From positions 637,483 to 701,482 of the forward strand of contig OY970216.1 in assembly GCA_963713955.1 (NCBI GenBank): DNA of 64,000 nucleotides. Reading direction: 5' to 3'. Positions 4,372 to 55,921 of this stretch are shown in pieces. Numbering within the stretch: position 1 is the stretch's first letter; every line of letters begins with the position of its first letter. The notes under the pieces were generated by a model, which saw nothing but the letters and a program-made list of their open reading frames with translations, was not told where the DNA came from and searched no databases. The stretch comes from an uncultured bacterium (GTDB lineage Bacteria; Patescibacteriota; Minisyncoccia; UBA6257; GWB1-50-10). The position numbers were made by a program, and so were the translations under genes.

Positions 4372-6801
4372 TCAAGACTTTTTCTTCGTCCCCTTTGTCC
4401 CGCCAGAAACGGAATGTCCGCCGAATTGGTTTCGGAGCGCGGAAAGAATGCGTCCCATATAACTCGGCGATTTTTTAGATCGCATGCGGAACTTGAAAGC
4501 ATCCTCAATGGCCGGCAACTTCATGTCCCGTTTGCGCGCCGTCAGGATCGTCCACTCGCCTTCTCCGGTCGCGACAACCGACCCCGAAATTCCTTTCAAA
4601 TCTTCACCGTGCGCGCGGAAGGCGTTCTCGAGCCACCCGACGAGCCTCGATTCGATGACGCTCCCCCGGTTGTAAACCGCCGCGACTTCTTTAAGATTCA
4701 ATTTGAAAGGAGATTTTTTCATGAGCGCGAAACCCTCCGCGAGCGATTGCATCATGCCGTACTCGATTCCGTTGTGCACCATTTTGACGAAATGCCCCGC
4801 GCCCGCTTCCCCGAAACGGGCATAGCCGCCGGGCACCGAGAGATCCGCGAAGAGTTTTCCAAGAGACTCAAACGTCTTCGGTTCCCCGCCTATCATGAGG
4901 GAACCGCCATGGCGCGCGCCGGAAGGCCCGCCCGAAAAACCGACGTCCATAAATCGTATGCCTCTTTTAGCGAGGAGTTTCGACCGACGGACCGTATCCT
5001 CGAAAAACGAGTTGCCGGCGTCGATGACGACGTCTCCTCTATCTAAAAACTTCGTCAAACCGCCTTTCCCGAAAAGAGCGTCATCCACTCCCTTTCCCGC
5101 CGTAATCATGAGCCACACAACCCTCGGGCGCTTGAGTTTCGATATGAGTTCCTCGATCGAGAAGGCCGTCTCGAAACCCTCCTCGCCGATCTCGTCCACG
5201 GGGCCCTGCGAGCGATTCGCCGCGACGACGCGCCATCCCTTGTCGCGAAGCTGGCGTGCGACGTTCCGACCCATCTTTCCCAGGCCGAAAATTCCTATCT
5301 CTCCCGCCGGGAGGCCGTTGAGAGAAACGCCGTTATCCAAAGCTTCCGCCTCGGCGGAAATCGAAGAGTTGTCCGGCCGGTAGTGCTTCAGAGGGACTGT
5401 GTTCTTCCGCCAGCCGGCGATTATGGAATCGATGAAGCGCCACATGGCGGATATTTCGGCGCTTGAGACGAAAAGCATCTGATTATCCGATATGCAATCG
5501 AGGAGGAGCTTTTCGTACTCTTCCGTATATTGCGTCCTCCGGCCAGTTTTCCGGAGATCGAAATCAAACGTTCGCTCTTCGAGCTCCATCGTGAGTCCCG
5601 GCTTCTTCGACCAAAAATGAATGGTAATACCCTCGGCGGGATCCTGTTTGAAAACAACGGAATTCCGGTAATGCTTGCCGGGCGGACAAAGGCAGGGCCG
5701 CGGATGCCTGAAAGTCACTTCTATTTCCGTTATCTCGCCGCGGGAGCCGGGATTCATGAGCCGTTTACCGGCTTCCATAATGAACGTCACGCCGCGCCAC
5801 CGGGGATGCGCAAGGGAAAATCTTGCCCTGAAGTAGGTCTCGGTATCGGAATCGGGACGCACGCCCTTCACGGAGCGGTACCCTTCGTACTGAGCCCGGA
5901 ATGTCTGTCGCTTGACTTCTTTAAAAGACAGAGGAACGAGCGTTTGGAGGATCGACGCGCGATTTTTCCTCACGGCGTCGGCTTCCAGGCTTTCCGGCTG
6001 ATCCATCGTGACCAAAGCCACCATCTGGAGAAGGTGGTTCTGGCCGACGTCCCGGAGCGCCCCCACCGCGTCGTAAAAGGGACCGCGGTCTTCCACCCCG
6101 ATGTTCTCGAATTCGCGGACGCGCACGCTCTCGATGAGTTCGTTCCCCCAATTGTCCTCGAAAAGATTGTTGAAGAACCGGAATGCCATCACGTTCTGGA
6201 ACGTTTCTTTGGCCAAGTAATGGTCAATCCGGTAAATCTGATCTTCGCTGAAAAGCTTGGCGAGTTCCGCGTCGAGTGCTTTTGCGCTCTTCTCGTCGCT
6301 GCCGAACGGTTTTTCCACGATTACCCTTGTCCATCCTTCTTCGGGTCCGCCGCACGGTTCGCTCAAGCCCGATGCCGAAATATTTTTCAGTATCTCCGGA
6401 TAAAAGCGCGGCGGCACCGCGAGGTACAAGAGTTTGTTCGAACACATACCCCAGCGACCGTCGACGGCTTTGAGCGCCTCGGAAAGCCTCGCGTAGTCGG
6501 CTTCGTTCTCAAACGTCCCCCGTTCGTAGGAGTAAAGCGAGAGGAATTTTTCAATGCGTTTCTTTTCGCGATTCACGTTTACATGTTTTTTGAGTATCTC
6601 CCTCACCCGTTCCCGGAAATCGCTGTCCGTTAGATCACGTCTCGCGAAACCGACGACGCGAAACATGCGCGGCAAAGAATCCTTCGCGAAAAGGTTATAG
6701 AGGGCCGGCACTATCTTCTTCGTCATGAGATCGCCGGTCGCTCCAATGATGACGACAATGGTCGGTATTCGAGGTTTTACGTCCTTCTTTTTTGCAGACA
6801 T
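4372..6801 (-). CDS. zwf: Bifunctional fusion: glucose-6-phosphate 1-dehydrogenase (Zwf) + short-form 6-phosphogluconate dehydrogenase (Gnd/YqeC-type)
   Basis: 809 aa. N-terminal part has IIGATGDLMTKKIVPALYNLF and RIDHYLAKE (G6PD signatures). C-terminal ~300 aa has IGIFGLGKMGRNVA, DAGNSFFEDT, GEAGAGHFVKMVHNGIEYGMMQ (6PGDH signatures). Confidence 0.85.
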   Translation of the reverse strand: MSAKKKDVKPRIPTIVVIIGATGDLMTKKIVPALYNLFAKDSLPRMFRVVGFARRDLTDSDFRERVREILKKHVNVNREKKRIEKFLSLYSYERGTFENEADYARLSEALKAVDGRWGMCSNKLLYLAVPPRFYPEILKNISASGLSEPCGGPEEGWTRVIVEKPFGSDEKSAKALDAELAKLFSEDQIYRIDHYLAKETFQNVMAFRFFNNLFEDNWGNELIESVRVREFENIGVEDRGPFYDAVGALRDVGQNHLLQMVALVTMDQPESLEADAVRKNRASILQTLVPLSFKEVKRQTFRAQYEGYRSVKGVRPDSDTETYFRARFSLAHPRWRGVTFIMEAGKRLMNPGSRGEITEIEVTFRHPRPCLCPPGKHYRNSVVFKQDPAEGITIHFWSKKPGLTMELEERTFDFDLRKTGRRTQYTEEYEKLLLDCISDNQMLFVSSAEISAMWRFIDSIIAGWRKNTVPLKHYRPDNSSISAEAEALDNGVSLNGLPAGEIGIFGLGKMGRNVARQLRDKGWRVVAANRSQGPVDEIGEEGFETAFSIEELISKLKRPRVVWLMITAGKGVDDALFGKGGLTKFLDRGDVVIDAGNSFFEDTVRRSKLLAKRGIRFMDVGFSGGPSGARHGGSLMIGGEPKTFESLGKLFADLSVPGGYARFGEAGAGHFVKMVHNGIEYGMMQSLAEGFALMKKSPFKLNLKEVAAVYNRGSVIESRLVGWLENAFRAHGEDLKGISGSVVATGEGEWTILTARKRDMKLPAIEDAFKFRMRSKKSPSYMGRILSALRNQFGGHSVSGGTKGTKKKS

Positions 6802-6844: not shown

Positions 6845-7936
6845 TCATTCGGCGAAATGCTTGGAAAGCTTCGCCTTCGATTGGAAAGAATAATTGGAGG
6901 TCCCAAGCGAATCGTAAAGGATCTCGGGGATTTCAGCCATCCGCTCAAACTTGATCTTCGCGATTGCCTGCTTGTTCCTGATAATCATATCCTCGAAAGG
7001 CCTCACTTCGAGCGTCGCGGGACGCCCTTTCCCCTCGCCTGCCTTGCCGTATCCCCATCCTGGATCGAAAAACCCCGCGTAGTGGGACCTAAATTCACCG
7101 CTCCGTTCATCCATCGGAGCGACTTCGAGCGCCATGGAGGGGGGGACCCGCACGGCCTCCTTGGTGGACAAAATGTAAAATCCTCCTTTCTTCAGGGAAA
7201 CGCTTTCTCCTTTCTTCATCAGCCTGAAAAAATCATCGGGATCGTAGAATTTCCTTTTTGAAAAATCCATCACCTTGTTCGATCCCAAGCATTCGTACCC
7301 GATTGCATCTTGATCGAGGTCTAATCTCAGGATCACCGAGCCGTCGCCGTCCCTTATTTTGATGTCTTCATAGCGTATCGGCTCTCCGTGGCTGTCGAAA
7401 ACGAGTGCTTCCTTGTCGAGGACGTCTTTGAGTTCATTTTCTGTAAGCCTCGTATCGCGGTTGAAAAACCGGACTTGCGTCAGCCGCTCGCCCGGAGAAA
7501 CCTTGATCGGATATGAACGCGGGTTCACAGCGAGCCACAGCGATCCCGCATACCCCCGAGGAATCGTATCATAGCGCGAAACCCCGTCCGCGAGCACGCG
7601 GACGTGAACGTCATTCCGGCCCGTCGAACTCTTCGGGTTACAATAGCCGTAGAGATCCGGCGGCAGAGCAATAACTTCATTGAGGCGCGCAAGATACGTT
7701 ACATCCCGTTCGAGCGGATTCTCGAAGTTGTGCTTCGAGTGTTCCGTTTTCTCCACGAGTTCTGCGATTGTTTCACCCGGACGCGGCAGAAATATTCCCT
7801 CCACCCGGTATATTTCTTCCGAAAGAGAGAGATCAATTGACGCGGGGTTCAGATTTTCATCGGCGGTGTTCTTAATCGACCCTCCCCGGATCAGTTCTTT
7901 CACCTCTTGATACGGCAAAGCTCCAAAGCCATCCAT
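6845..7936 (-). CDS. dUTPase-fold protein, long-form dCTP deaminase-like (DCD family-like)
   Basis: Start taken at internal Met (MDGFGALPYQEVKELIRGGSI), since the upstream 122 codons are antisense to a plausible + gene. NLNPASIDLSL and CNPKSSTGRNDVHV resemble Dcd motifs (ATVDVRLG, GRSSLARLG). 364 aa. Confidence 0.45.
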   Translation of the reverse strand: MDGFGALPYQEVKELIRGGSIKNTADENLNPASIDLSLSEEIYRVEGIFLPRPGETIAELVEKTEHSKHNFENPLERDVTYLARLNEVIALPPDLYGYCNPKSSTGRNDVHVRVLADGVSRYDTIPRGYAGSLWLAVNPRSYPIKVSPGERLTQVRFFNRDTRLTENELKDVLDKEALVFDSHGEPIRYEDIKIRDGDGSVILRLDLDQDAIGYECLGSNKVMDFSKRKFYDPDDFFRLMKKGESVSLKKGGFYILSTKEAVRVPPSMALEVAPMDERSGEFRSHYAGFFDPGWGYGKAGEGKGRPATLEVRPFEDMIIRNKQAIAKIKFERMAEIPEILYDSLGTSNYSFQSKAKLSKHFAE

Positions 7937-7954
7937 AGTATCATTAATGATATA

Positions 7955-8311
7955 ATGAATCCATCCATGGAAGCAATTTACTACCCATGCCGCTACTGCG
8001 GAAACCAAGTTCCTCCCGATGCTTATTTTTGCCCCGCGTGCGGAAAGCAGCTGAGAGAGAAGGAACTTTCGACTTCCGTCGCAAAGCAGATACTGATCTA
8101 CGCCGTGAGCTTCTTTTTGCCTCCTCTCGGACTCATGTGGACTTTCAAGTACCTGAAGCAGGAGAGCCAAAAAGCCAAAAATATCGGGATCATTTCTCTT
8201 GTCCTCACCGTTGTTGCCATAGCCGTCGCCGTCTGGGTCACGGCCGACATCGTGAACGGCCTGAACTCGTACCTCAACAATCAGCTTAACGGAAGTTTGC
8301 AACTGTACTAG
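7955..8311 (+). CDS. Zinc-ribbon (CxxC..CxxC) membrane protein, hypothetical
   Basis: MNPSMEAIYYPCRYCGNQVPPDAYFCPACGK, then two predicted TM helices. AT-rich upstream taatgatataatg. Confidence 0.5.
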   Translation: MNPSMEAIYYPCRYCGNQVPPDAYFCPACGKQLREKELSTSVAKQILIYAVSFFLPPLGLMWTFKYLKQESQKAKNIGIISLVLTVVAIAVAVWVTADIVNGLNSYLNNQLNGSLQLY

Positions 8312-8355: not shown

Positions 8356-8438
8356 GGGAGGCTCGGTGAGGCGAAAAAGTGGGTAAGACTTGGCCTAGCG
8401 GCCCGGAGCGCACACTTTTTCGGCTTGCCGGGCCTCCC
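8356..8438. repeat. Nested-palindrome intergenic repeat, family A copy 1 (MITE/REP-like)
   Basis: TIR-like arms gggaggc..gaggcgaaaaagtg / cactttttcgg..gcctccc. Core gaaaaagtgtgcgctccggg(c/g)cgctaggcca(a/ga)gtctt is shared, reverse-complemented, with 54925-55077. Confidence 0.6.
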
Positions 8439-8480: not shown

Positions 8481-8738
8481 ATGGAAACTTACAACGAGAA
8501 TTGGGGCGACATGCCCAATGCCGTGAAGGACCTCGAGAGAGCCCGGCAGTCGCTCGTCGAGGAGCTTGAGGCAATTAATTGGTACGAGCAAAGGATCGAG
8601 GCGACGGACGACGGCGAACTGAGAAAGATCCTCACCCATAACAGGGATGAAGAAAAGGAGCACGCAGCTCTCCTCTTCGAATACATCAAAAAGCGCGACC
8701 CCGAGCAGGCGCGCGCCCTCGAGAAGTCAGACATCTAA
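8481..8738 (+). CDS. Encapsulated-ferritin-like (EncFtn-type) small ferritin-like protein
   Basis: 85 aa; VEELEAINWYEQRIEATDDGELRKILTHNRDEEKEHAALLFEYIKKRD closely resembles the EncFtn core (..EELEAVDWYDQR..NRDEEKEHAA..). No encapsulin shell gene nearby. Confidence 0.65.
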   Translation: METYNENWGDMPNAVKDLERARQSLVEELEAINWYEQRIEATDDGELRKILTHNRDEEKEHAALLFEYIKKRDPEQARALEKSDI

Positions 8739-16270: not shown

Positions 16271-16272
16271 AC

Positions 16273-16301
16273 GGCTCCCGGTGCGAAGCCCCCCGGGAGC
16301 C
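16273..16301. repeat. GC hairpin repeat ggctcccggtgcgaagccccccgggagcc (family C hairpin module)
   Basis: Perfect 9-bp stem; the same module occurs at 21390-21420, 24375-24394 (partial) and 33153-33184 (inverted). Confidence 0.6.
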
Positions 16302-16316
16302 CAAAGTTGATTTCTA

Positions 16317-21309: not shown

Positions 21310-21335
21310 GTTTTTATTCTATCACTCGCCGCCGA

Positions 21336-21420
21336 GTTATCCACAGATTTATGGAGAGCGGGAGGCCATATATTGGGAGATAACTCCGTTGCGGCTCCCG
21401 GTGCAAAGCCCCCGGGAGCC
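21336..21420. repeat. Intergenic repeat, family C copy 1 (gttatccacagatttatggagagcgggaggccatata..gataactccgttgcggctcccggtgc..cccgggagcc)
   Basis: Near-identical to 24298-24394; its 5' part recurs inverted at 31166-31196; the 3' hairpin recurs at 16273-16301 and 33153-33184. Confidence 0.65.
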
Positions 21421-21426
21421 CCAGAA

Positions 21427-22026
21427 TTAATTGAAATCAATCTTCTTGATTATTTTGTCCACCTGCCACCGCTTATTAACCCGGCAAAGATACATTTCCT
21501 TCGCGATGAACGAAAACCCAACGCCCTTCGTTCTTTCCCGAACCTCTAGGGCATCTCTGGGATTTTTCAAATACCCCATGCTGAAATGCGGGCTGAAACC
21601 GGTGGGACGGCCGTATTTCCCGAACTCCCGCAAGTCCTTTGCCGTCCAAGTTTTAAACGTGAGAAGCGGCATCGTCCCGGTTCTCAGCGGATGGATCCTT
21701 TCGAATACTTTCCTCTGCAAGGAAACCAGTGATCTCGTCCTTGCCACGGAAAATCCGACCGTCATTCCCCTCTTGACTTGAGAAGCGTGGAAATCGGCGA
21801 CGTTCACCGTGAAAGGTCTCAAATCCTCAGCTATCTTTTCGAGTTCTTCGGCTATTTTATTGATTCTCCCTCCGGCGGTATTGAGATGCCACAGGGAAAG
21901 ATGCGGAATCAGTTTAACGTTGTCGACCACGAACTCGGCCGGACACCCGGCGGTTTCTTTCCTCATCCTCCGGCCGATTTTCTCCCGCAACCCCGCCGGT
22001 GGCAATATGACCACATCCAGAAGCAT
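21427..22026 (-). CDS. 2H phosphoesterase superfamily protein (LigT-like RNA 2',3'-cyclic phosphodiesterase)
   Basis: Two H-x-[ST]-x motifs: PHLSLWHL and PHFSMGYL. Confidence 0.7.
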   Translation of the reverse strand: MLLDVVILPPAGLREKIGRRMRKETAGCPAEFVVDNVKLIPHLSLWHLNTAGGRINKIAEELEKIAEDLRPFTVNVADFHASQVKRGMTVGFSVARTRSLVSLQRKVFERIHPLRTGTMPLLTFKTWTAKDLREFGKYGRPTGFSPHFSMGYLKNPRDALEVRERTKGVGFSFIAKEMYLCRVNKRWQVDKIIKKIDFN

Positions 22027-24297: not shown

Positions 24298-24394
24298 TAG
24301 TTATCCACAGATTTATGGAGAGCGGGAAGCCATAATGAGAGCGGGAGGCCATATAATTGGGGGATAACTCCGTTGCGGCTCCCGGTGCGGAGTC
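24298..24394. repeat. Intergenic repeat, family C copy 2 (with an internal 20-nt duplication), just upstream of pilin-like gene 1
   Basis: agttatccacagatttatggagagcgggaagccataatgagagcgggaggccatataattgggggataactccgttgcggctcccggtgcggagtcc. Confidence 0.65.
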
Positions 24395-24463
24395 CAAATT
24401 TCTATTCCCTATCCCTCTAACCCGTCCGAGCCTTGAGGAGAAATCGAGTTAATGCATCTCTGT

Positions 24464-31165: not shown

Positions 31166-31196
31166 CCTCCCGCTCTCCATAAATCTGTGGATAACT
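31166..31196. repeat. Family C repeat, 5' module in inverted orientation, between paralogs 2 and 3
   Basis: cctcccgctctccataaatctgtggataact is the reverse complement of agttatccacagatttatggagagcgggagg. Confidence 0.6.
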
Positions 31197-31251: not shown

Positions 31252-32478
31252 ATGAACTTTCGTTCCCGAAGCAGCTTCACTTTGATCGAGCTCCTTGTCG
31301 TGATCGCGATCCTGGCTGTCCTAGCCACAGCAGTCGTCCTAGTCTTAAACCCCTCCCAGCTCCTTGCTCAGGGAAGGGATTCCACCCGTCTCTCAGACCT
31401 GGCAGCTCTGAATAGCGCTTTATCCTTGTTCCAGGCTGATGCCTATACCCAGTCATTGGGGACTCCCAATACCCTCTACATCTCAGTCCCTGACAATGCC
31501 TCCTCCACCTGTGGATCCCTGGGTCTTCCCACCCCTCCCACAGGCTATTCCTATCACTGTGTCCCCAGTGCTTCCTCCACGAGAATAGATGGTACCGGCT
31601 GGATTCCCGTCAATCTAACCCTCATATCATCAGGATCTCCTCTTTCGAAGCTCCCTATTGATCCCATAAACACTACCTCATCTGGTCTCTACTACACCTA
31701 TGTCTCAGGAGGATCATATGAATTGACCGGTCTACCTGAATCACAGAAGTACAAGGCACAGATTGAAGGCAACCCAATGATTCCCATGATTCCCGGAGTC
31801 ATAGCCTATGGTTCCAACCTTACCTTATCTCCCTTGTTCAGTACCCAGGGGTTAGTGGGCTATTGGCCTCTCGATGAAGGGTCCGGCTCAACAGCCAATG
31901 ATATGAGTGGGAATGGGAATAATGGGACGTGGAATGGAAGTGGAACGCATTATGCTCAGGGTAAGGTTGGGGGGTTCGCTGGGCAATTCAATGGGACAAG
32001 CACACAAGATTACACTAGCGCTCCTTATAACACTTCACTCAATGTAACGAGTCTTACTATAACCGCCTGGGTCAAAAACTCGGCAACGGGAGAGAGGGTT
32101 GTCGCCTCAAAATTTGGTTCATCACCTTATCAAGGTTATTGGTTTGGCGAAGACAGTGGTGGTGGATTGCGGGTTTGCTTAGGTACAGGTGGTCAGACAT
32201 GTATTAATAAGGGACTTTTTCCTACCGATAATACCTGGCATTTTATTTCTTTTACTTATGACAATACGACCGGTACTTGGAATTTCTATATTGATGCTTC
32301 TACAACTGGTTCATCTACGGCAGTTACCGCTATAGCACCGGTTAATACGGATTTTCGGATCGGAGTCGGCCAGTGGAGTTCAAGCGACTATTTTCAGGGA
32401 CTAATCGACGATGTTCGTATCTACAACCGAGCGTTGTCCGCAGCGGAGATAGCTGCTATCTATAACGCACAGAAGTAA
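31252..32478 (+). CDS. Prepilin::LamG paralog 3
   Basis: MNFRSRSS|FTLIELLVVIAILAVLA..; C-terminal GLIDDVRIYNRALSAAEIAAIYNAQK. Confidence 0.8.
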   Translation: MNFRSRSSFTLIELLVVIAILAVLATAVVLVLNPSQLLAQGRDSTRLSDLAALNSALSLFQADAYTQSLGTPNTLYISVPDNASSTCGSLGLPTPPTGYSYHCVPSASSTRIDGTGWIPVNLTLISSGSPLSKLPIDPINTTSSGLYYTYVSGGSYELTGLPESQKYKAQIEGNPMIPMIPGVIAYGSNLTLSPLFSTQGLVGYWPLDEGSGSTANDMSGNGNNGTWNGSGTHYAQGKVGGFAGQFNGTSTQDYTSAPYNTSLNVTSLTITAWVKNSATGERVVASKFGSSPYQGYWFGEDSGGGLRVCLGTGGQTCINKGLFPTDNTWHFISFTYDNTTGTWNFYIDASTTGSSTAVTAIAPVNTDFRIGVGQWSSSDYFQGLIDDVRIYNRALSAAEIAAIYNAQK

Positions 32479-33108: not shown

Positions 33109-33152
33109 GGTATTACCTGAATTCTAGCGCTTTTCCAAGACCACGACAATTT

Positions 33153-33184
33153 GGGGACTCCCGGGGACTTCGCACCGGGAGGCC
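33153..33184. repeat. Family C hairpin module (inverted): ggggactcccggggacttcgcaccgggaggcc
   Basis: Reverse complement ggcctcccggtgcgaagtccccgggagtcccc matches 16273-16301. Confidence 0.55.
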
Positions 33185-52870: not shown

Positions 52871-52957
52871 CTTGCCATCCACCCCTCGCTCAGGCTGTCT
52901 CCGGGGCGACGCCCAAGTCTTAGCCTTCGCAAGGGATGGATGGCTCGCTTTTTTCGG
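52871..52957. repeat. Nested-palindrome repeat family B copy 1, acting as a terminator between convergent nth and pilin-like gene 5
   Basis: gccatccacccctcgc..cctcgctcaggctgtctccggggcgacgcccaagtcttagccttcgc..gcaagggatggatggc + ttttttcgg; the core recurs inverted at 55848-55894. Confidence 0.6.
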
Positions 52958-52961
52958 AAGG

Positions 52962-54149
52962 TTACTTTTCTGCGTTGTACATCGCTTGAATCTCGGCTGC
53001 GGAAAGTGGACGGTTGTAGATACGAACATCATCGATCAAGCCGTTGAAATAACCGTTACCGGCACCAATGACTGGATTTCCAGAAATCGAGGTTATGCTC
53101 CCGGGAACGTATGTCTTGGAACTCACCATAACGCCGTTTATGTAAAGCTTTGTCACTCCCGAGATGGCATCGCCGGTACCCGCCGCATAATACCATGTAC
53201 CATAAGAGGGAATTACATAACGCGGAGTTGCATCCTCTCTAGTACTATTCACGTTAATCTCTCCGACTATTTGTCCGTTGCCATCTATCCAGACACCATT
53301 CATGTATCCCCAACCTACAACTTGCGTACTTATCTGGCTGTTTGGCCTAACCCATGCCGAAAAAGAAACTTGGTTCGAGGTGGTGATGAGCGAATTCAGG
53401 GCAGCACTCAAATTCACGGAAGCGTTGCTACTCGTCCCGTTGAAACTTAAGCACCCTCCAACCTTACAGCCTGAAGTCCACATGGGGCTGTTCACTAATG
53501 TCCCATTATTCCCATTCCCACTCATATCACTCGCATTCCCATCCAGCGGCCAGTACCCCACGAGCCCACTTGCATTGAATAAGGGAGAAAGATTGAGGTT
53601 GGAACCATAGGCAATGACTCCAGGAATCATCTGGATCATAGGATTTGTCTCAATCTGGGCTTTGTACTTCTGTGACTCAGGGATAGCGGTAAGCTCAAAG
53701 GAGCCTCCTGGCGTATAGGTATAGTAGAGTCCTGAGGACGTAGTATTCACGGGATCAATCGGGAGCTTGGATAATGGGGATCCTGATGAAATGAGGGTGA
53801 GATTGACGGGAATCCAGCCAGAACCATCTGTTCTTGTGGAAGAAGCAGCTGGAACACAGGCATAGGAGTAACCTCCTGGAAGGGCAGGGAGCCCCAGGTT
53901 GCCACAGGTACTTGAGGAGTCAGGGATAGAGACATAGGTAGTGGAGGCATTTCCTAAGGGTTGGTTCCATTGATCGGTCTGGAAGAGGGATAAGGCACTA
54001 TTCAGAGCTGAGAGATCAGAGAGTCTCGTGGAATCCCTTCCTTGAGCGAGAAGCTGGGAAGGGTTCAAGACCAAGACGACGGCGGTTGCGAGGACCGCAA
54101 GGATCGCAATCACGACCAGGAGCTCGATCAGGGTGAAGGATTCCCTCAT
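52962..54149 (-). CDS. Prepilin::LamG paralog 5
   Basis: MRES|FTLIELLVVIAILAVLA..; C-terminal GLIDDVRIYNRPLSAAEIQAMYNAEK. Confidence 0.8.
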   Translation of the reverse strand: MRESFTLIELLVVIAILAVLATAVVLVLNPSQLLAQGRDSTRLSDLSALNSALSLFQTDQWNQPLGNASTTYVSIPDSSSTCGNLGLPALPGGYSYACVPAASSTRTDGSGWIPVNLTLISSGSPLSKLPIDPVNTTSSGLYYTYTPGGSFELTAIPESQKYKAQIETNPMIQMIPGVIAYGSNLNLSPLFNASGLVGYWPLDGNASDMSGNGNNGTLVNSPMWTSGCKVGGCLSFNGTSSNASVNLSAALNSLITTSNQVSFSAWVRPNSQISTQVVGWGYMNGVWIDGNGQIVGEINVNSTREDATPRYVIPSYGTWYYAAGTGDAISGVTKLYINGVMVSSKTYVPGSITSISGNPVIGAGNGYFNGLIDDVRIYNRPLSAAEIQAMYNAEK

Positions 54150-54489: not shown

Positions 54490-54924
54490 ATGGCCACTCG
54501 CCATTTGATCAGATCGATAGTTCTTCAGTCACTCTATGAGTGGGACTTCTACAACAAGAAGACCGATCTCACGGCGATCATGCAAAGGAATCTCGAGGAG
54601 TTCGGGCCGGGAATCGACGAGCCGGAATTTGCCTGGCGGCTCCTCAAGGGCATCATCGACCATCTCCCTCAGATAGACGAACTTATAAAAACGTACGCGA
54701 GCGAATGGCCAATAGACCAAATAGCCATCGTGGATCGAAATATATTGAGAATCGGGCTTTACGAACTACTCTACGCCAATAAAGAAGAGGTGCCGCCGAA
54801 GGTAGCCATCAATGAGGCCATCGAAGTAGCCAAAAACTACAGCGGGCAGAACTCGCCGCGTTTCATCAACGGCGTTTTGGGAACCGTTTACAAGGAACTG
54901 GAGGAAGGAAAGATATCCAGATAA
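54490..54924 (+). CDS. nusB: Transcription antitermination factor NusB
   Basis: [13 protein letters not shown].., ..[25 protein letters not shown]. Confidence 0.8.
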
Positions 54925-55077
54925 GATTCGGTAAGTCGAAAAAGTGTGCGCTCCGGGGCGCTAGGCCAGAGTCTTCTTTTGGCGAGCGAGGAGCAAAACG
55001 AGAGTTTCTTACTATCGCTTTGTCCGAGCGATGGCAAAAAGAGCGAAGCTCTACCCACTTTTTCGCCTTCCCGAATC
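54925..55077. repeat. Nested-palindrome repeat family A copy 2 (MITE-like, 24-nt TIRs, ~80-nt internal insertion relative to copy 1), overlapping the 3' end of tmk
   Basis: gattcggtaagtcgaaaaagtgtgcgctccggggcgctaggccagagtctt...cccactttttcgccttcccgaatc. Confidence 0.6.
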
Positions 55078-55773
55078 TTTTCTTAAGAGGCGGAGTTGTA
55101 CTTTTTCCCACACGAGTTCGTGTATTTCGGGGACAGTCATAAGCCGCCCCTTTTTGACACATTCTATCAAAGTAAAATCCTTCGGGAACATTTTTACCAT
55201 TTCGAGGTACGTACGTTCGGCCTGCCTTAAGTGGGAGATATCTTTTTCGTGGATATCCCTCATTTTGCCGCCCAAATACTCACGGGATCTTTTCCTGCCA
55301 ATGAGATCGTAGGCGATCTCGGCCGGCACGTGAAGTATGATCGAGAGATCGGGCTTCGGGATGCCCATGATCCCGTATTCGAAATCGTAAACCCAGTGCA
55401 GAAATCTTTTTCTCTCCACCCTGTTCCCTACCTTGGCGCCTTGGTGGCCCATGTTAGAAGGAACATATCGGTTGGAAACGACGACGTGGCCGGACGAGAC
55501 CCATTTTCTTATTTTTGGTCCGACGTCGAATCGATCGAGGCCGTAAAAAATAGATGCCCGATAGGGGCCGACATCGCGCCAACCTCCATAGGAGCCGTTC
55601 AGATACCGTTCCACGAAAAAAGCCGACGGTTTCCCGTACTGCGGAAAGTCGAATGTCGCCGTCTTGAAACCTTCGGATTTAAGCCTTTTCAAGAGGAGGT
55701 CAAATTGTTTGCTTTTGCCGGAGCCATCGATGCCCTCGAGAACTAAAAACTTTCCTCTTCGCATGGCCTTCAT
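55051..55773 (-). CDS. tmk: Thymidylate kinase
   Basis: Start at MKAMRRGKFLVLEGIDGSGKS (P-loop); the last ~9 codons lie inside repeat A. Confidence 0.75.
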   Translation of the reverse strand: MKAMRRGKFLVLEGIDGSGKSKQFDLLLKRLKSEGFKTATFDFPQYGKPSAFFVERYLNGSYGGWRDVGPYRASIFYGLDRFDVGPKIRKWVSSGHVVVSNRYVPSNMGHQGAKVGNRVERKRFLHWVYDFEYGIMGIPKPDLSIILHVPAEIAYDLIGRKRSREYLGGKMRDIHEKDISHLRQAERTYLEMVKMFPKDFTLIECVKKGRLMTVPEIHELVWEKVQLRLLRKDSGRRKSG

Positions 55774-55833
55774 TATAGCACAAGAAGAGAGACTCCCGAG
55801 CGCCTTCAATGCTCAGGAGTCATAGAAATAAAC

Positions 55834-55921
55834 GAGCTCAGTAATCCCGCGAAGGCTAAGACTTGGGCGTCGCCCCGGAGACTGCCTGAGCGGGAATACT
55901 GAGCGAGTTGATTTAATCAAC
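55834..55921. repeat. Repeat family B copy 2 (inverted) plus gttgatttaatcaac palindrome overlapping the rplK stop; terminator-like
   Basis: gagctcagtaatcccgcgaaggctaagacttgggcgtcgccccggagactgcctgagcgggaatactgagcgag. Confidence 0.55.

What the first reader, a model, noticed from the sequence alone, without database searches (positions are those of the whole stretch)
54925..55077. MITE-like nested-palindrome repeats (families A and B), one copy overlapping the 3' end of tmk
Family A lies at 8356-8438 and 54925-55077. Both copies have ~24-nt terminal inverted repeats around a shared core gaaaaagtgtgcgctccggg.cgctaggcca.gtctt. Copy 2 carries an ~80-nt insertion, and its 3' TIR supplies the last codons and stop of tmk. 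Family B (core cctcgctcagg..gtctccggggcgacgcccaagtcttagccttcgc) is a related nested hairpin at 52884-52930 and, inverted, 55848-55894. Both B copies act as terminators at gene ends. Together they look like a family of small non-autonomous mobile or REP elements.
Basis: seen in the sequence. Interest (0 to 1): 0.5.

Follow-up and report, generated by a model that had tools for sequence, protein, structure and literature searches.

The report
Conserved-tip hairpin repeats of Patescibacteria
The four repeats are real copies of a hairpin-shaped, apparently mobile DNA element with an invariant 24-base tip and a freely varying stem; it is spread through the ultra-small Patescibacteria (and a few Bifidobacterium), sits between genes and in-frame inside essential genes, and matched no described family in the resources I could search.

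Summary
All four loci exist as described, and tmk takes its last 8 codons and stop from copy A2.

Families A and B are two subfamilies of one superfamily. All share the core CTCCGGGNCG-N2-3-GSCC-N1-2-AGTCTT at the tip of a ~20-25 bp hairpin. A truncated scan of one genome per species found the core in 117 loci. About 110 carry the hairpin, from 81 assemblies: 78 Patescibacteria and 3 Bifidobacterium.

Stems differ between copies but stay paired (14/14 stem pairs covary). Stem mismatches are G:U on one strand 55 times against 10 on the other.

A2 is absent from three relatives, where nusB and tmk overlap. B2 is replaced there by an ordinary terminator. About a quarter of copies lie in-frame inside housekeeping genes (queA, tgt, tsaD, aaRS, uvrC).

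A2's "80-nt insertion" is a conserved nested second hairpin.

I found no conserved terminal repeats, target duplications, linked transposase or Rfam match, so the element is not a classical MITE or REP. The closest analogue is the Rickettsia palindromic elements.

Most likely it is a selfish hairpin element copied through a single-stranded intermediate, with some copies reused as terminators. The copying mechanism is inferred, not shown.

The parts
8356..8438 (+). Copy A1, a canonical short element. It is an 83-nt hairpin with its core at 8385-8408. The structure-bearing (F) strand is +. It lies in the spacer between two + strand ORFs (7907-8311 and 8481-8738).
   Evidence: RNA fold -56.6 kcal/mol on + against -45.9 on -. 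CM E=3.9e-17.
52874..52944 (-). Copy B1, subfamily B. Its core is at 52899-52921 with a 3-nt tip loop, and its F strand is -. It lies between the convergent stops of nth (52868, +) and a pilin/LamG-like paralogue (52962, -). On the + strand it is followed by TCGCTTTTTT.
   Evidence: Fold -53.0 kcal/mol (-) against -45.4 (+). CM E=5e-6.
54923..55079 (-). Copy A2, the long form of subfamily A. Its core is at 54951-54975 and its F strand is -. It is inserted between the convergent ends of nusB and tmk.
   Evidence: It is absent from the orthologous nusB/tmk junction in L118, L120/L121 and L122. Its arms are nearly identical to those of a copy at an unrelated locus in L047.
54976..55052 (+). A 77-nt nested module inside A2, directly after AGTCTT. 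It is a second hairpin that folds best on the opposite strand, with a double tandem G.A base (GGC-GA-GC-GA-GG / CC-GA-GC-GA-TGGC), plus a small 3' hairpin (AGAGC-GAA-GCTCT).
   Evidence: The same module lies at the same junction in L096 (6995-7150, 84% identity) and L014 (about 2190-2300), with compensatory changes in its helices.
55051..55077 (-). The last 8 codons and the stop codon of tmk (DSGRRKSG*), supplied by the right arm of A2.
   Evidence: tmk is 226-228 aa in two relatives (249 aa in L122) against 252 aa here. The gene call in L126 ends at the same base.
55836..55904 (+). Copy B2, subfamily B. Its core is at 55858-55880 and its F strand is +. It lies 9-20 nt downstream of the rplK stop (55913, minus strand) and upstream of the tmk start. 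On the minus strand it is followed by TCGTTTATTTCT.
   Evidence: CM E=1.9e-5. L118 and L122 have an ordinary GC hairpin plus T-run at this place. L062 (Brennerbacteria) has a B-like copy at the same place in the same orientation.

Best explanation
The four loci are copies of a selfish, non-autonomous hairpin element that is copied as a whole hairpin.

Anatomy. Each copy is one imperfect palindrome, about 70-110 nt long (about 155 nt when a second element is nested inside). Its tip carries an invariant, asymmetric motif. On the strand I call F this reads 5'-U AAGACUY GGSC NARC GSCC CGGAG CG-3'. The 20-25 bp stem is free to change as long as it stays paired.

Proposed mechanism. New copies arise through a step in which the F strand alone must fold, as single-stranded DNA or as RNA. 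The conserved tip is the handle recognised by a trans-acting protein that is encoded elsewhere.

Fate of copies. They survive where they do little harm: in spacers, at gene 3' ends (here rewriting the C-terminus of tmk), and in-frame in tolerant loops of housekeeping proteins. Some, such as B1 and B2, now sit where a terminator is needed and probably serve as one.

Shown: the repeat family, its anatomy, its covariation, its strand asymmetry, an insertion polymorphism and in-frame genic copies.

Inferred: that spread is by transposition-like copying, that the intermediate is single-stranded, that the tip is a protein recognition site, and that B1 and B2 terminate transcription.
For: Distribution. 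About 110 of these carry the hairpin. They come from 81 assemblies, with several copies per genome and up to 3 in 3.5 kb.

Whole hairpin as the copied unit. A2 and a copy in L047 share their arms although they lie at unrelated loci.

Insertion polymorphism:
- A2 is absent from three relatives, in which nusB and tmk overlap.
- The queA copy in L009 is absent from L016 and L031.

Copies inside genes. About a quarter of copies are stop-free inside long ORFs. All 10 tested lie in genuine housekeeping genes with Pfam matches on both sides of the insert.

Structure under constraint:
- All 14 stem pairs show changes on both sides.
- 85.6% of cells are paired, against 60% in shuffles and at most 54% in slid controls.
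- The tip pair is CG in 59 copies and GC in 39, and never unpaired, although that position was free in the search pattern.
- Orthologous in-gene copies in L054 and L071 carry compensated double changes.

One strand matters:
- Isolated stem mismatches are G:U on F 55 times against 10 on the other strand (p=1e-8).
- This holds whatever the direction of the neighbouring genes.
- F folds better in 107 of 126 copies.
- Internal loops are tandem G.A on F, and U21.G36 is invariant.

No self-contained function:
- No promoter lies at a fixed distance.
- Orientation relative to genes is not fixed: 35 against 15.
- No protein recurs nearby.

Nesting at one fixed junction. The second module always sits right after AGTCTT. 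This is typical of mobile repeats that insert into each other.
Against: - No mobilising enzyme, target motif or target duplication was found, so the copying mechanism is unknown.
- No filled/empty pair at strain-level identity was available. The closest relatives have 85-88% identical NusB, so the junctions cannot be read exactly.
- Compensated changes in orthologous copies, and retention at the same site in distant lineages (L062 against B2, L045 against L090), point to constraint in place. That fits a host function as well as, or better than, selfish DNA.
- The invariant U.G pair and the tandem G.A loops are more typical of RNA than of DNA recognition.
- Extreme conservation of the 24-nt tip across phyla needs either a very widely conserved partner or repeated horizontal transfer.
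Confidence: 0.55

Rival explanations
1. The element is a host-functional structured RNA module. The F-strand hairpin with its conserved tip is made as RNA and bound by a conserved RNA-binding protein or nuclease. It might act as a processing or stability element, as an antisense RNA, or as a precursor of small duplex RNA. In this view copies are kept because they work where they are.
For: - There is strong covariation, G:U tolerance on one strand only, an invariant U.G pair and tandem G.A loops.
- Orthologous copies carry compensated changes.
- Copies are kept at the same site in distant lineages.
- The stem length is narrow, with a median of about 24 bp.
Against: - In about 70% of one-directional contexts the F strand is antisense to the neighbouring genes, and both orientations occur.
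- No promoter-like signal lies at a fixed distance on either side.
- A quarter of copies are translated parts of essential genes.
- A2 changed a protein's C-terminus.
- Close relatives do without any copy across 20 kb of the same region.
- No Rfam family matches.
Confidence: 0.25
2. The element is a classical MITE or REP: a deletion derivative of an insertion sequence, or a RAYT/IS200-type palindrome. In this view it is moved by a cognate transposase that recognises the element's ends.
For: - It is small, palindromic and multi-copy, and it shows insertion polymorphism.
- Strand-specific hairpins are used by IS200/IS605 and RAYT enzymes. This last point is from my own knowledge.
Against: - The ends are not conserved between copies. 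Only the tip is.
- There is no target-site duplication beyond background.
- No transposase or any other protein recurs in 117 loci.
- Copies are not restricted to extragenic space.
- No GTAG or CGTC tag was noticed at the foot of the hairpin by eye in the flank listings. I did not search for it.
Confidence: 0.07
3. The loci are ordinary intrinsic terminators that look alike because of local duplication or convergence.
For: B1 and B2 lie just after stop codons and are followed by T-rich runs. Relatives have a plain terminator at the place of B2.
Against: - An identical 23-24-nt asymmetric core in more than 100 hairpins across phyla cannot be convergence.
- Copies occur inside ORFs and in divergent promoter spacers.
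- The stems carry C.A mismatches on the strand that would be the terminator RNA.
- The T count after the hairpin is barely above background: 3.4 against 2.7 in 10 nt.
Confidence: 0.03

Closest known systems
Rickettsia palindromic elements (RPE; Ogata et al. 2000, Claverie and Ogata 2003; recalled from my own knowledge. The term appears in papers listed, which I did not read.)
   Same: - Both are short palindromic repeats of roughly 100-150 nt in a reduced-genome, host-dependent bacterium.
- Both are found in spacers and in-frame inside housekeeping genes, where they are translated.
- Neither has a linked transposase or classical transposon ends.
- In both, hairpin potential is kept by compensatory change.
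   Different: - There is no sequence relationship. This was not tested, because I held no RPE sequences.
- Here the conserved part is a 24-nt asymmetric tip shared across a whole superphylum and Bifidobacterium, while the stems are hypervariable.
- A clear single-strand (G:U) asymmetry is shown here.
REP / REPIN elements mobilised by RAYT, and IS200/IS605-derived palindrome-associated elements (from my own knowledge, plus the title and abstract of PMC3733652 as listed)
   Same: Both are multi-copy hairpins. Both show strand-specific folding, with a probable single-stranded intermediate. Both often lie at gene 3' ends, where they can act as terminators or stabilisers.
   Different: - REPs are 20-40 nt, have a conserved stem sequence and a GTAG/CGTC tag at one end, are extragenic, and co-occur with a RAYT gene.
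- The conserved stem sequence, the extragenic restriction and a nearby transposase were tested and not found. Neither the tag nor RAYT co-occurrence across genomes was tested.
Bacterial MITEs (for example Correia/NEMIS, ERIC, RUP, BOX; from my own knowledge. The review PMC10969869 was listed but I did not read it.)
   Same: Both are small, non-autonomous and dispersed. Both can supply terminators or promoters, or change coding ends.
   Different: MITEs are defined by conserved terminal inverted repeats and target-site duplications. Both were tested here and not met.
Integron attC sites (from my own knowledge)
   Same: Both are recognised as a folded single strand. Both have a variable stem sequence with conserved structure, and in both only one strand is active.
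   Different: - attC conservation is at the foot of the hairpin (the R and L boxes), and the tip is variable. Here it is the opposite.
- attC sites flank cassettes in arrays next to an integrase. These copies are solitary.
Coding palindromes and hairpin elements in mitochondrial genomes (Nematomorpha, PMC6649704: title and start of the abstract as listed, paper not read; yeast GC clusters, from my own knowledge)
   Same: Both are inverted repeats embedded in-frame in protein genes, with both arms translated.
   Different: They occur in a different genetic system, have no shared conserved tip motif, and are not known from free-standing bacterial genomes.

Membership tests
MITE | Terminal inverted repeats whose sequence is conserved among the copies of a family | tested here: not met
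   In about 120 copies the outer arms differ from copy to copy. Conservation rises towards the tip, not towards the ends.
MITE | Target-site duplication of fixed length flanking each copy | tested here: not met
   The longest flanking direct repeat averages 2.95 nt, against 2.44 nt in mismatched-flank controls. The small excess at 5 nt comes from the CTCGC stem-base motif.
MITE | A related autonomous insertion sequence with the same ends | tested here: not met
   All-against-all clustering of 1870 ORFs from 117 loci found no family in more than 7 loci, and those few were housekeeping genes. There were no hits in phage, plasmid or viral collections.
MITE | Small size, many copies and insertion polymorphism | tested here: met
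   Copies are 70-155 nt. There are at least 120 copies in 81 assemblies. A2 and the queA copy are absent from relatives.
REP/REPIN | A 20-40 nt palindrome with conserved stem sequence and a GTAG or CGTC tag at one end | tested here: not met
   Size and stem conservation were tested: the hairpins are 70-110 nt and the stems are not conserved. The tag itself was not searched for. None was noticed by eye in the flank listing.
REP/REPIN | Restricted to extragenic space | tested here: not met
   29-32 copies lie stop-free inside long ORFs. All 10 checked are genuine genes.
REP/REPIN | Co-occurrence with a RAYT (IS200-like Y1) gene in the genome | not tested
   Only 8-kb loci were held, and no such gene recurred in them. 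Whole genomes could not be fetched.
Rickettsia palindromic elements (RPE) | A palindromic repeat inserted in-frame and translated within housekeeping genes | tested here: met
   Copies lie within QueA, Tgt, TsaD, class-I aaRS, CysRS, UvrC, Wzy_C and aminotransferase genes, with Pfam matches on both sides of the insert. Translation itself is inferred from the open reading frames.
Rickettsia palindromic elements (RPE) | Sequence homology to the RPE-1 to RPE-10 consensus sequences | not testable with these tools
Homology is not expected, given the unrelated phylum. I claim an analogy, not membership.
Intrinsic terminator | A G+C-rich hairpin followed directly by a U-run, at the 3' end of a transcription unit | tested here: inconclusive
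   B1 and B2 fit by position and T-rich tail. The consensus scanner does not call them, probably because its loop limit is exceeded. Across the family the T count after the hairpin is near background.
Any Rfam RNA family | A match to a curated covariance model | tested here: not met
   At gathering threshold on the window only a tRNA matched. E-value scans over all four copies returned only chance hairpin matches.
TIGR-Tas stem-loop arrays | Tandem arrays of units with two variable spacers between box C/D-like motifs, next to a Tas (Nop-domain) gene | tested here: not met
   The copies are solitary, the tip is invariant and has no spacers, and no gene recurs nearby. TIGR features were taken from PMC12045711.

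The most novel reading that the evidence does not exclude
The conserved tip may not be a mere transposase handle. It could be the active part of a new class of structured RNA shared by Patescibacteria and some Actinobacteria.

One possibility is a hairpin RNA that is bound or processed by a universal factor, with each copy contributing its own about 22-bp duplex, like a bacterial pre-miRNA or guide precursor. Another is a hairpin that spreads through an RNA intermediate, as a retro-hairpin. Under either reading, dozens of antisense-oriented copies per tiny genome would form a regulatory or defence layer.
Probability: 0.18. Interest if true: 0.85.

Novelty: new variant of a known kind. Interest (0 to 1): 0.62.

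Why it matters
Patescibacteria have some of the smallest and most streamlined bacterial genomes. Even so, they carry a hairpin repeat that has entered essential genes (tRNA-modification enzymes, aminoacyl-tRNA synthetases, UvrC) and rewritten gene ends. Until now this kind of intrusion was best known from Rickettsia.

- **A route to the missing enzyme.** The invariant 24-nt tip gives a concrete handle for finding the unknown factor that copies such transposase-less palindromes. That question has stayed open for the Rickettsia elements for 25 years (from my own knowledge).
- **Possible gene flow.** The same tip occurs in Bifidobacterium, a genus of Actinobacteria. That phylum includes the known hosts of Saccharibacteria (from my own knowledge), which hints at transfer between epibiont and host lineages.
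- **Practical consequences.** The element distorts gene calls, producing C-terminal extensions and 30-40 aa inserts. Its copies could also serve as strain markers.

Tried and rejected
- **Known RNA families.** Rfam at gathering threshold on the window, and E-value scans over all four copies, gave nothing.
- **A piece of rRNA or another conserved RNA gene.** I suspected this when Saccharibacteria copies fell in conserved blocks. Rfam found none there, and the blocks proved to be protein genes.
- **TIGR-Tas arrays.** The architecture is different.
- **Origin in phages, plasmids or viruses.** There were no real hits. The three viral matches lack a hairpin.
- **A linked transposase or reverse transcriptase.** None recurs near the copies.
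- **Target-site duplication.** None was found.
- **An own promoter.** There is no positional signal.
- **Core-only insertion into pre-existing terminator loops, or inverted duplication of the target.** I rejected these as the general rule. Arms travel with the element (L047 against A2), and arms within a subfamily are homologous along their length.
- **Transcription-linked mutation bias as the cause of the G:U asymmetry.** The bias does not depend on gene direction.
- **A replication-strand rule.** Both orientations occur within 3 kb.
- **A fifth copy at 32005-32070** (CM E=0.1). It has no hairpin and lies inside a pilin-like gene.
- **Strain-level empty sites.** Exact-protein look-ups of L11 and L32 found nothing on record.
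- **Literature.** Searches by topic and by the motif sequence itself found no description.
- **Gene context.** My gene calling in the 117 loci was crude (longest ORFs), so context counts are approximate.

Full report
**1.

The repeat finder returns the two pairs: I19 for family A (40 nt, 93%) and I16 for family B (44 nt, 98%).

Each locus is a long imperfect palindrome:
- A1: 8356-8438
- B1: 52874-52944
- A2: 54923-55079
- B2: 55836-55904

All four fold far better than shuffled sequence (z -3.8 to -7.4).

The tmk ORF (55051-55809, minus strand) runs into the right arm of A2. It takes eight codons and its stop from the element. An independent gene call on another assembly of the same genome ends at the same base.

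**2. A and B are one thing**

Both families carry the same core, CTCCGGG-N-CG-N2-3-G-S-CC-N1-2-AGTCTT, at the tip of the hairpin. It occurs exactly four times in the window.

I scanned one genome for each of about 186,000 species for this pattern. Seven hits, from other phyla, have no hairpin and are chance matches.

The other 110 loci come from 81 assemblies:
- 78 are Patescibacteria: Saccharibacteria, Paceibacterota/Parcubacteria, Kaiser-, Jorgensen- and Brennerbacteria, Minisyncoccia, and Peregrini-/Peribacteria.
- 3 are Bifidobacterium species, one of them on a 1.67-Mb chromosome contig.

Many genomes have several copies, with up to three in 3.5 kb.

**3. Anatomy**

In every real copy the core sits on top of a stem with a median of about 24 Watson-Crick pairs. 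The stem sequence differs from copy to copy.

Conservation is layered:
- The 24-nt tip is universal.
- The next 10-15 bp define subfamilies. The window's A is gaaaaagtgtgcg / acccactttttc. Its B is cgctcaggctgt / agccttcgc. At least three further subfamilies exist elsewhere.
- The outer stem is nearly copy-specific, yet still recognisably homologous within a subfamily.

On a gap-free alignment of 98 copies:
- All 14 stem pairs show changes on both sides.
- 85.6% of cells are paired, against 60% after shuffling and at most 54% when partners are slid.
- The tip pair is C-G in 59 copies and G-C in 39, and never unpaired, although one of its two positions was unconstrained in my search pattern.
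- A U.G pair in the core is invariant.

About a fifth of copies also carry CTCGC on both sides at the hairpin foot.

**4. One strand matters**

Isolated stem mismatches are C:A on the strand that reads CTCCGG...AGTCTT. On the complementary strand (F) these are G:U. The count is 55 G:U on F against 10 on the other strand (p=1e-8).

The F strand folds better in 107 of 126 copies. On F the internal loops, including the CTCGC foot motif, become tandem G.A pairs.

The asymmetry holds whether the neighbouring genes run with or against F. It therefore belongs to the element and not to transcription of its surroundings.

Orientation relative to genes is only mildly biased, 35 against 15, with F more often antisense. 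Both orientations occur within 3 kb in the window, so a replication-strand rule is also out.

**5. It has moved**

Three relatives (NusB 85-88% identical) keep the gene order rpmF-nusB-tmk-rplK-nusG-secE. In them nusB and tmk overlap by about 10 nt, and tmk is 226-249 aa against 252 aa here. None of them has any copy in 13-20 kb of the region.

A2 is therefore an insertion in the window's lineage.

At the place of B2, two of the relatives have an ordinary GC hairpin with a T-run. A distant Brennerbacteria genome has a B-like copy at the same spot in the same orientation.

The arms of A2 recur almost unchanged in L047, between prfB and a peptidase gene. This means the whole hairpin, not just the tip, is what gets copied.

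**6. Copies inside genes**

In Saccharibacteria a copy lies in-frame inside queA in L009. It is absent from L016 and L031. L031 keeps an 11-nt stretch identical to the start of the element's arm, which may be a footprint.

Overall 29-32 copies are stop-free within long ORFs. All ten that I tested are real genes with Pfam matches on both sides of the insert: QueA, Tgt, TsaD, two class-I aaRS, CysRS, UvrC, two Wzy_C proteins and a class-V aminotransferase.

Orthologous in-gene copies in tsaD of L054 and L071 differ by compensated double substitutions and share an old G:U pair.

**7. The 'insertion' in A2**

The 77 nt at 54976-55052 recur in L096 (inside a family-A hairpin) and in L014 (inside a family-C hairpin). 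In each case they sit directly after AGTCTT, at 84% identity, with compensatory changes in their own helices.

The module folds best on the opposite strand, with a double tandem-G.A foot. I read it as a second hairpin element nested in the single-stranded junction of the first.

**8. What it is not**

- There is no Rfam match.
- It is not part of an rRNA.
- It is not a TIGR array.
- There are no phage, plasmid or viral copies.
- No protein recurs nearby.
- There is no target duplication.
- There is no promoter at a fixed distance.
- There are no conserved termini, so the defining features of MITEs and REPs are not met.

I found no description in the searchable literature, either by topic or by the motif sequence. 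That library is incomplete, so 'undescribed' is provisional.

**9. Interpretation**

The best fit is a selfish palindromic element of the kind known from Rickettsia (RPE; from my own knowledge). It is copied as a whole hairpin through a step in which one strand folds. The invariant tip would be the recognition site for an unlinked factor.

Copies persist in spacers, at gene ends and in tolerant protein loops. B1 and B2 probably double as terminators, but this rests on position and T-rich tails only and was not tested.

The main rival is a host-functional RNA hairpin. In-place compensation, the invariant U.G pair and site retention speak for it. Against it are the antisense bias, the lack of a promoter, the translated genic copies and the free absence of the element in relatives.

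I give the selfish-element reading 0.55 and the host-RNA reading 0.25.

**10. Verdict**

The element is a new variant of a known kind: palindromic mobile repeats without a transposase. Its unusual architecture, a conserved tip on a hypervariable stem, its superphylum-wide spread and its presence in essential genes make it worth follow-up.

Noticed in passing
window 16272-16312, 21392-21432, 24376-24395, 33147-33181 (inverted): A second, unrelated repeated hairpin, CGGCTCCCGG-TGCGAAGCCCC-CCGGGAGCC, occurs in four copies. The copies at 21392 and 24376 lie just downstream of the TTATCCACA block noted in the next item.
   Followed up: no
window 21335-21370, 24299-24334, 31166-31196 (inverted): A 31-36 nt block, AGTTATCCACAGATTTATGGAGAGCGGGAGG, is 97-100% identical between copies. 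It contains a perfect DnaA-box-like TTATCCACA. I guess it is a shared promoter or 5' leader of the paralogues, but I did not test this.
   Followed up: no
window 23.5-24.3 kb, 29.9-30.6 kb, 31.2-31.9 kb, 46.2-47.4 kb, 52.96-54.15 kb: At least five paralogous genes share 63-81% nucleotide identity. The only one I translated (52962-54149, 395 aa) starts with a type IV pilin-like signal (FTLIELLVV). They lie on both strands.
   Followed up: no
window 4372-6801 (-): An 809-aa ORF looks by eye like a fusion. It has a glucose-6-phosphate dehydrogenase-like N-terminal part and a 6-phosphogluconate dehydrogenase-like C-terminal part. I did not check it against a domain library.
   Followed up: no
L031 about 5020-5040 (queA): A genome that lacks the queA copy still has GCGGGTGGCCG, with three extra codons, at the insertion point. 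This stretch is identical to the first 11 nt of the element's arm in L020. It may be an excision footprint.
   Followed up: partly
L002 1036-1140, 1540-1650, 2240-2350: Three copies lie within 1.3 kb. Two have perfect 38-41 bp stems. One fills almost the whole spacer between two divergently transcribed genes, so their promoters must overlap the palindrome. The third has a variant core, CTCTGG...AGCCTTT.
   Followed up: partly
L009 3190-3285 against L016 3848-3902 and L031 5858-5912 (tgt): Three Saccharibacteria carry copies at the same place in tgt, but with the core in opposite orientations. The L009 copy has a variant core (UAAGCCUGGGCGAGCGCCCCUGAGCG), and I did not confirm that any frame stays open through it. 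This suggests either repeated insertion at a hot spot or flipping of the tip between the arms.
   Followed up: partly
L080 about 2060-2290 (queA): A 230-nt in-frame insert has arms like those of the queA element. Its interior is different and GA-rich (GGCGAGGAG, GGAGCGAGCGA), and it lacks the canonical core. It may be another composite or long form.
   Followed up: no
L013, L019, L026, L058: Bifidobacterium hapali, B. panos (two copies sharing their inner stems) and Bifidobacterium sp. ESL0763 carry bona fide copies with 19-28 bp stems. These are the only hits outside Patescibacteria that have a hairpin.
   Followed up: partly
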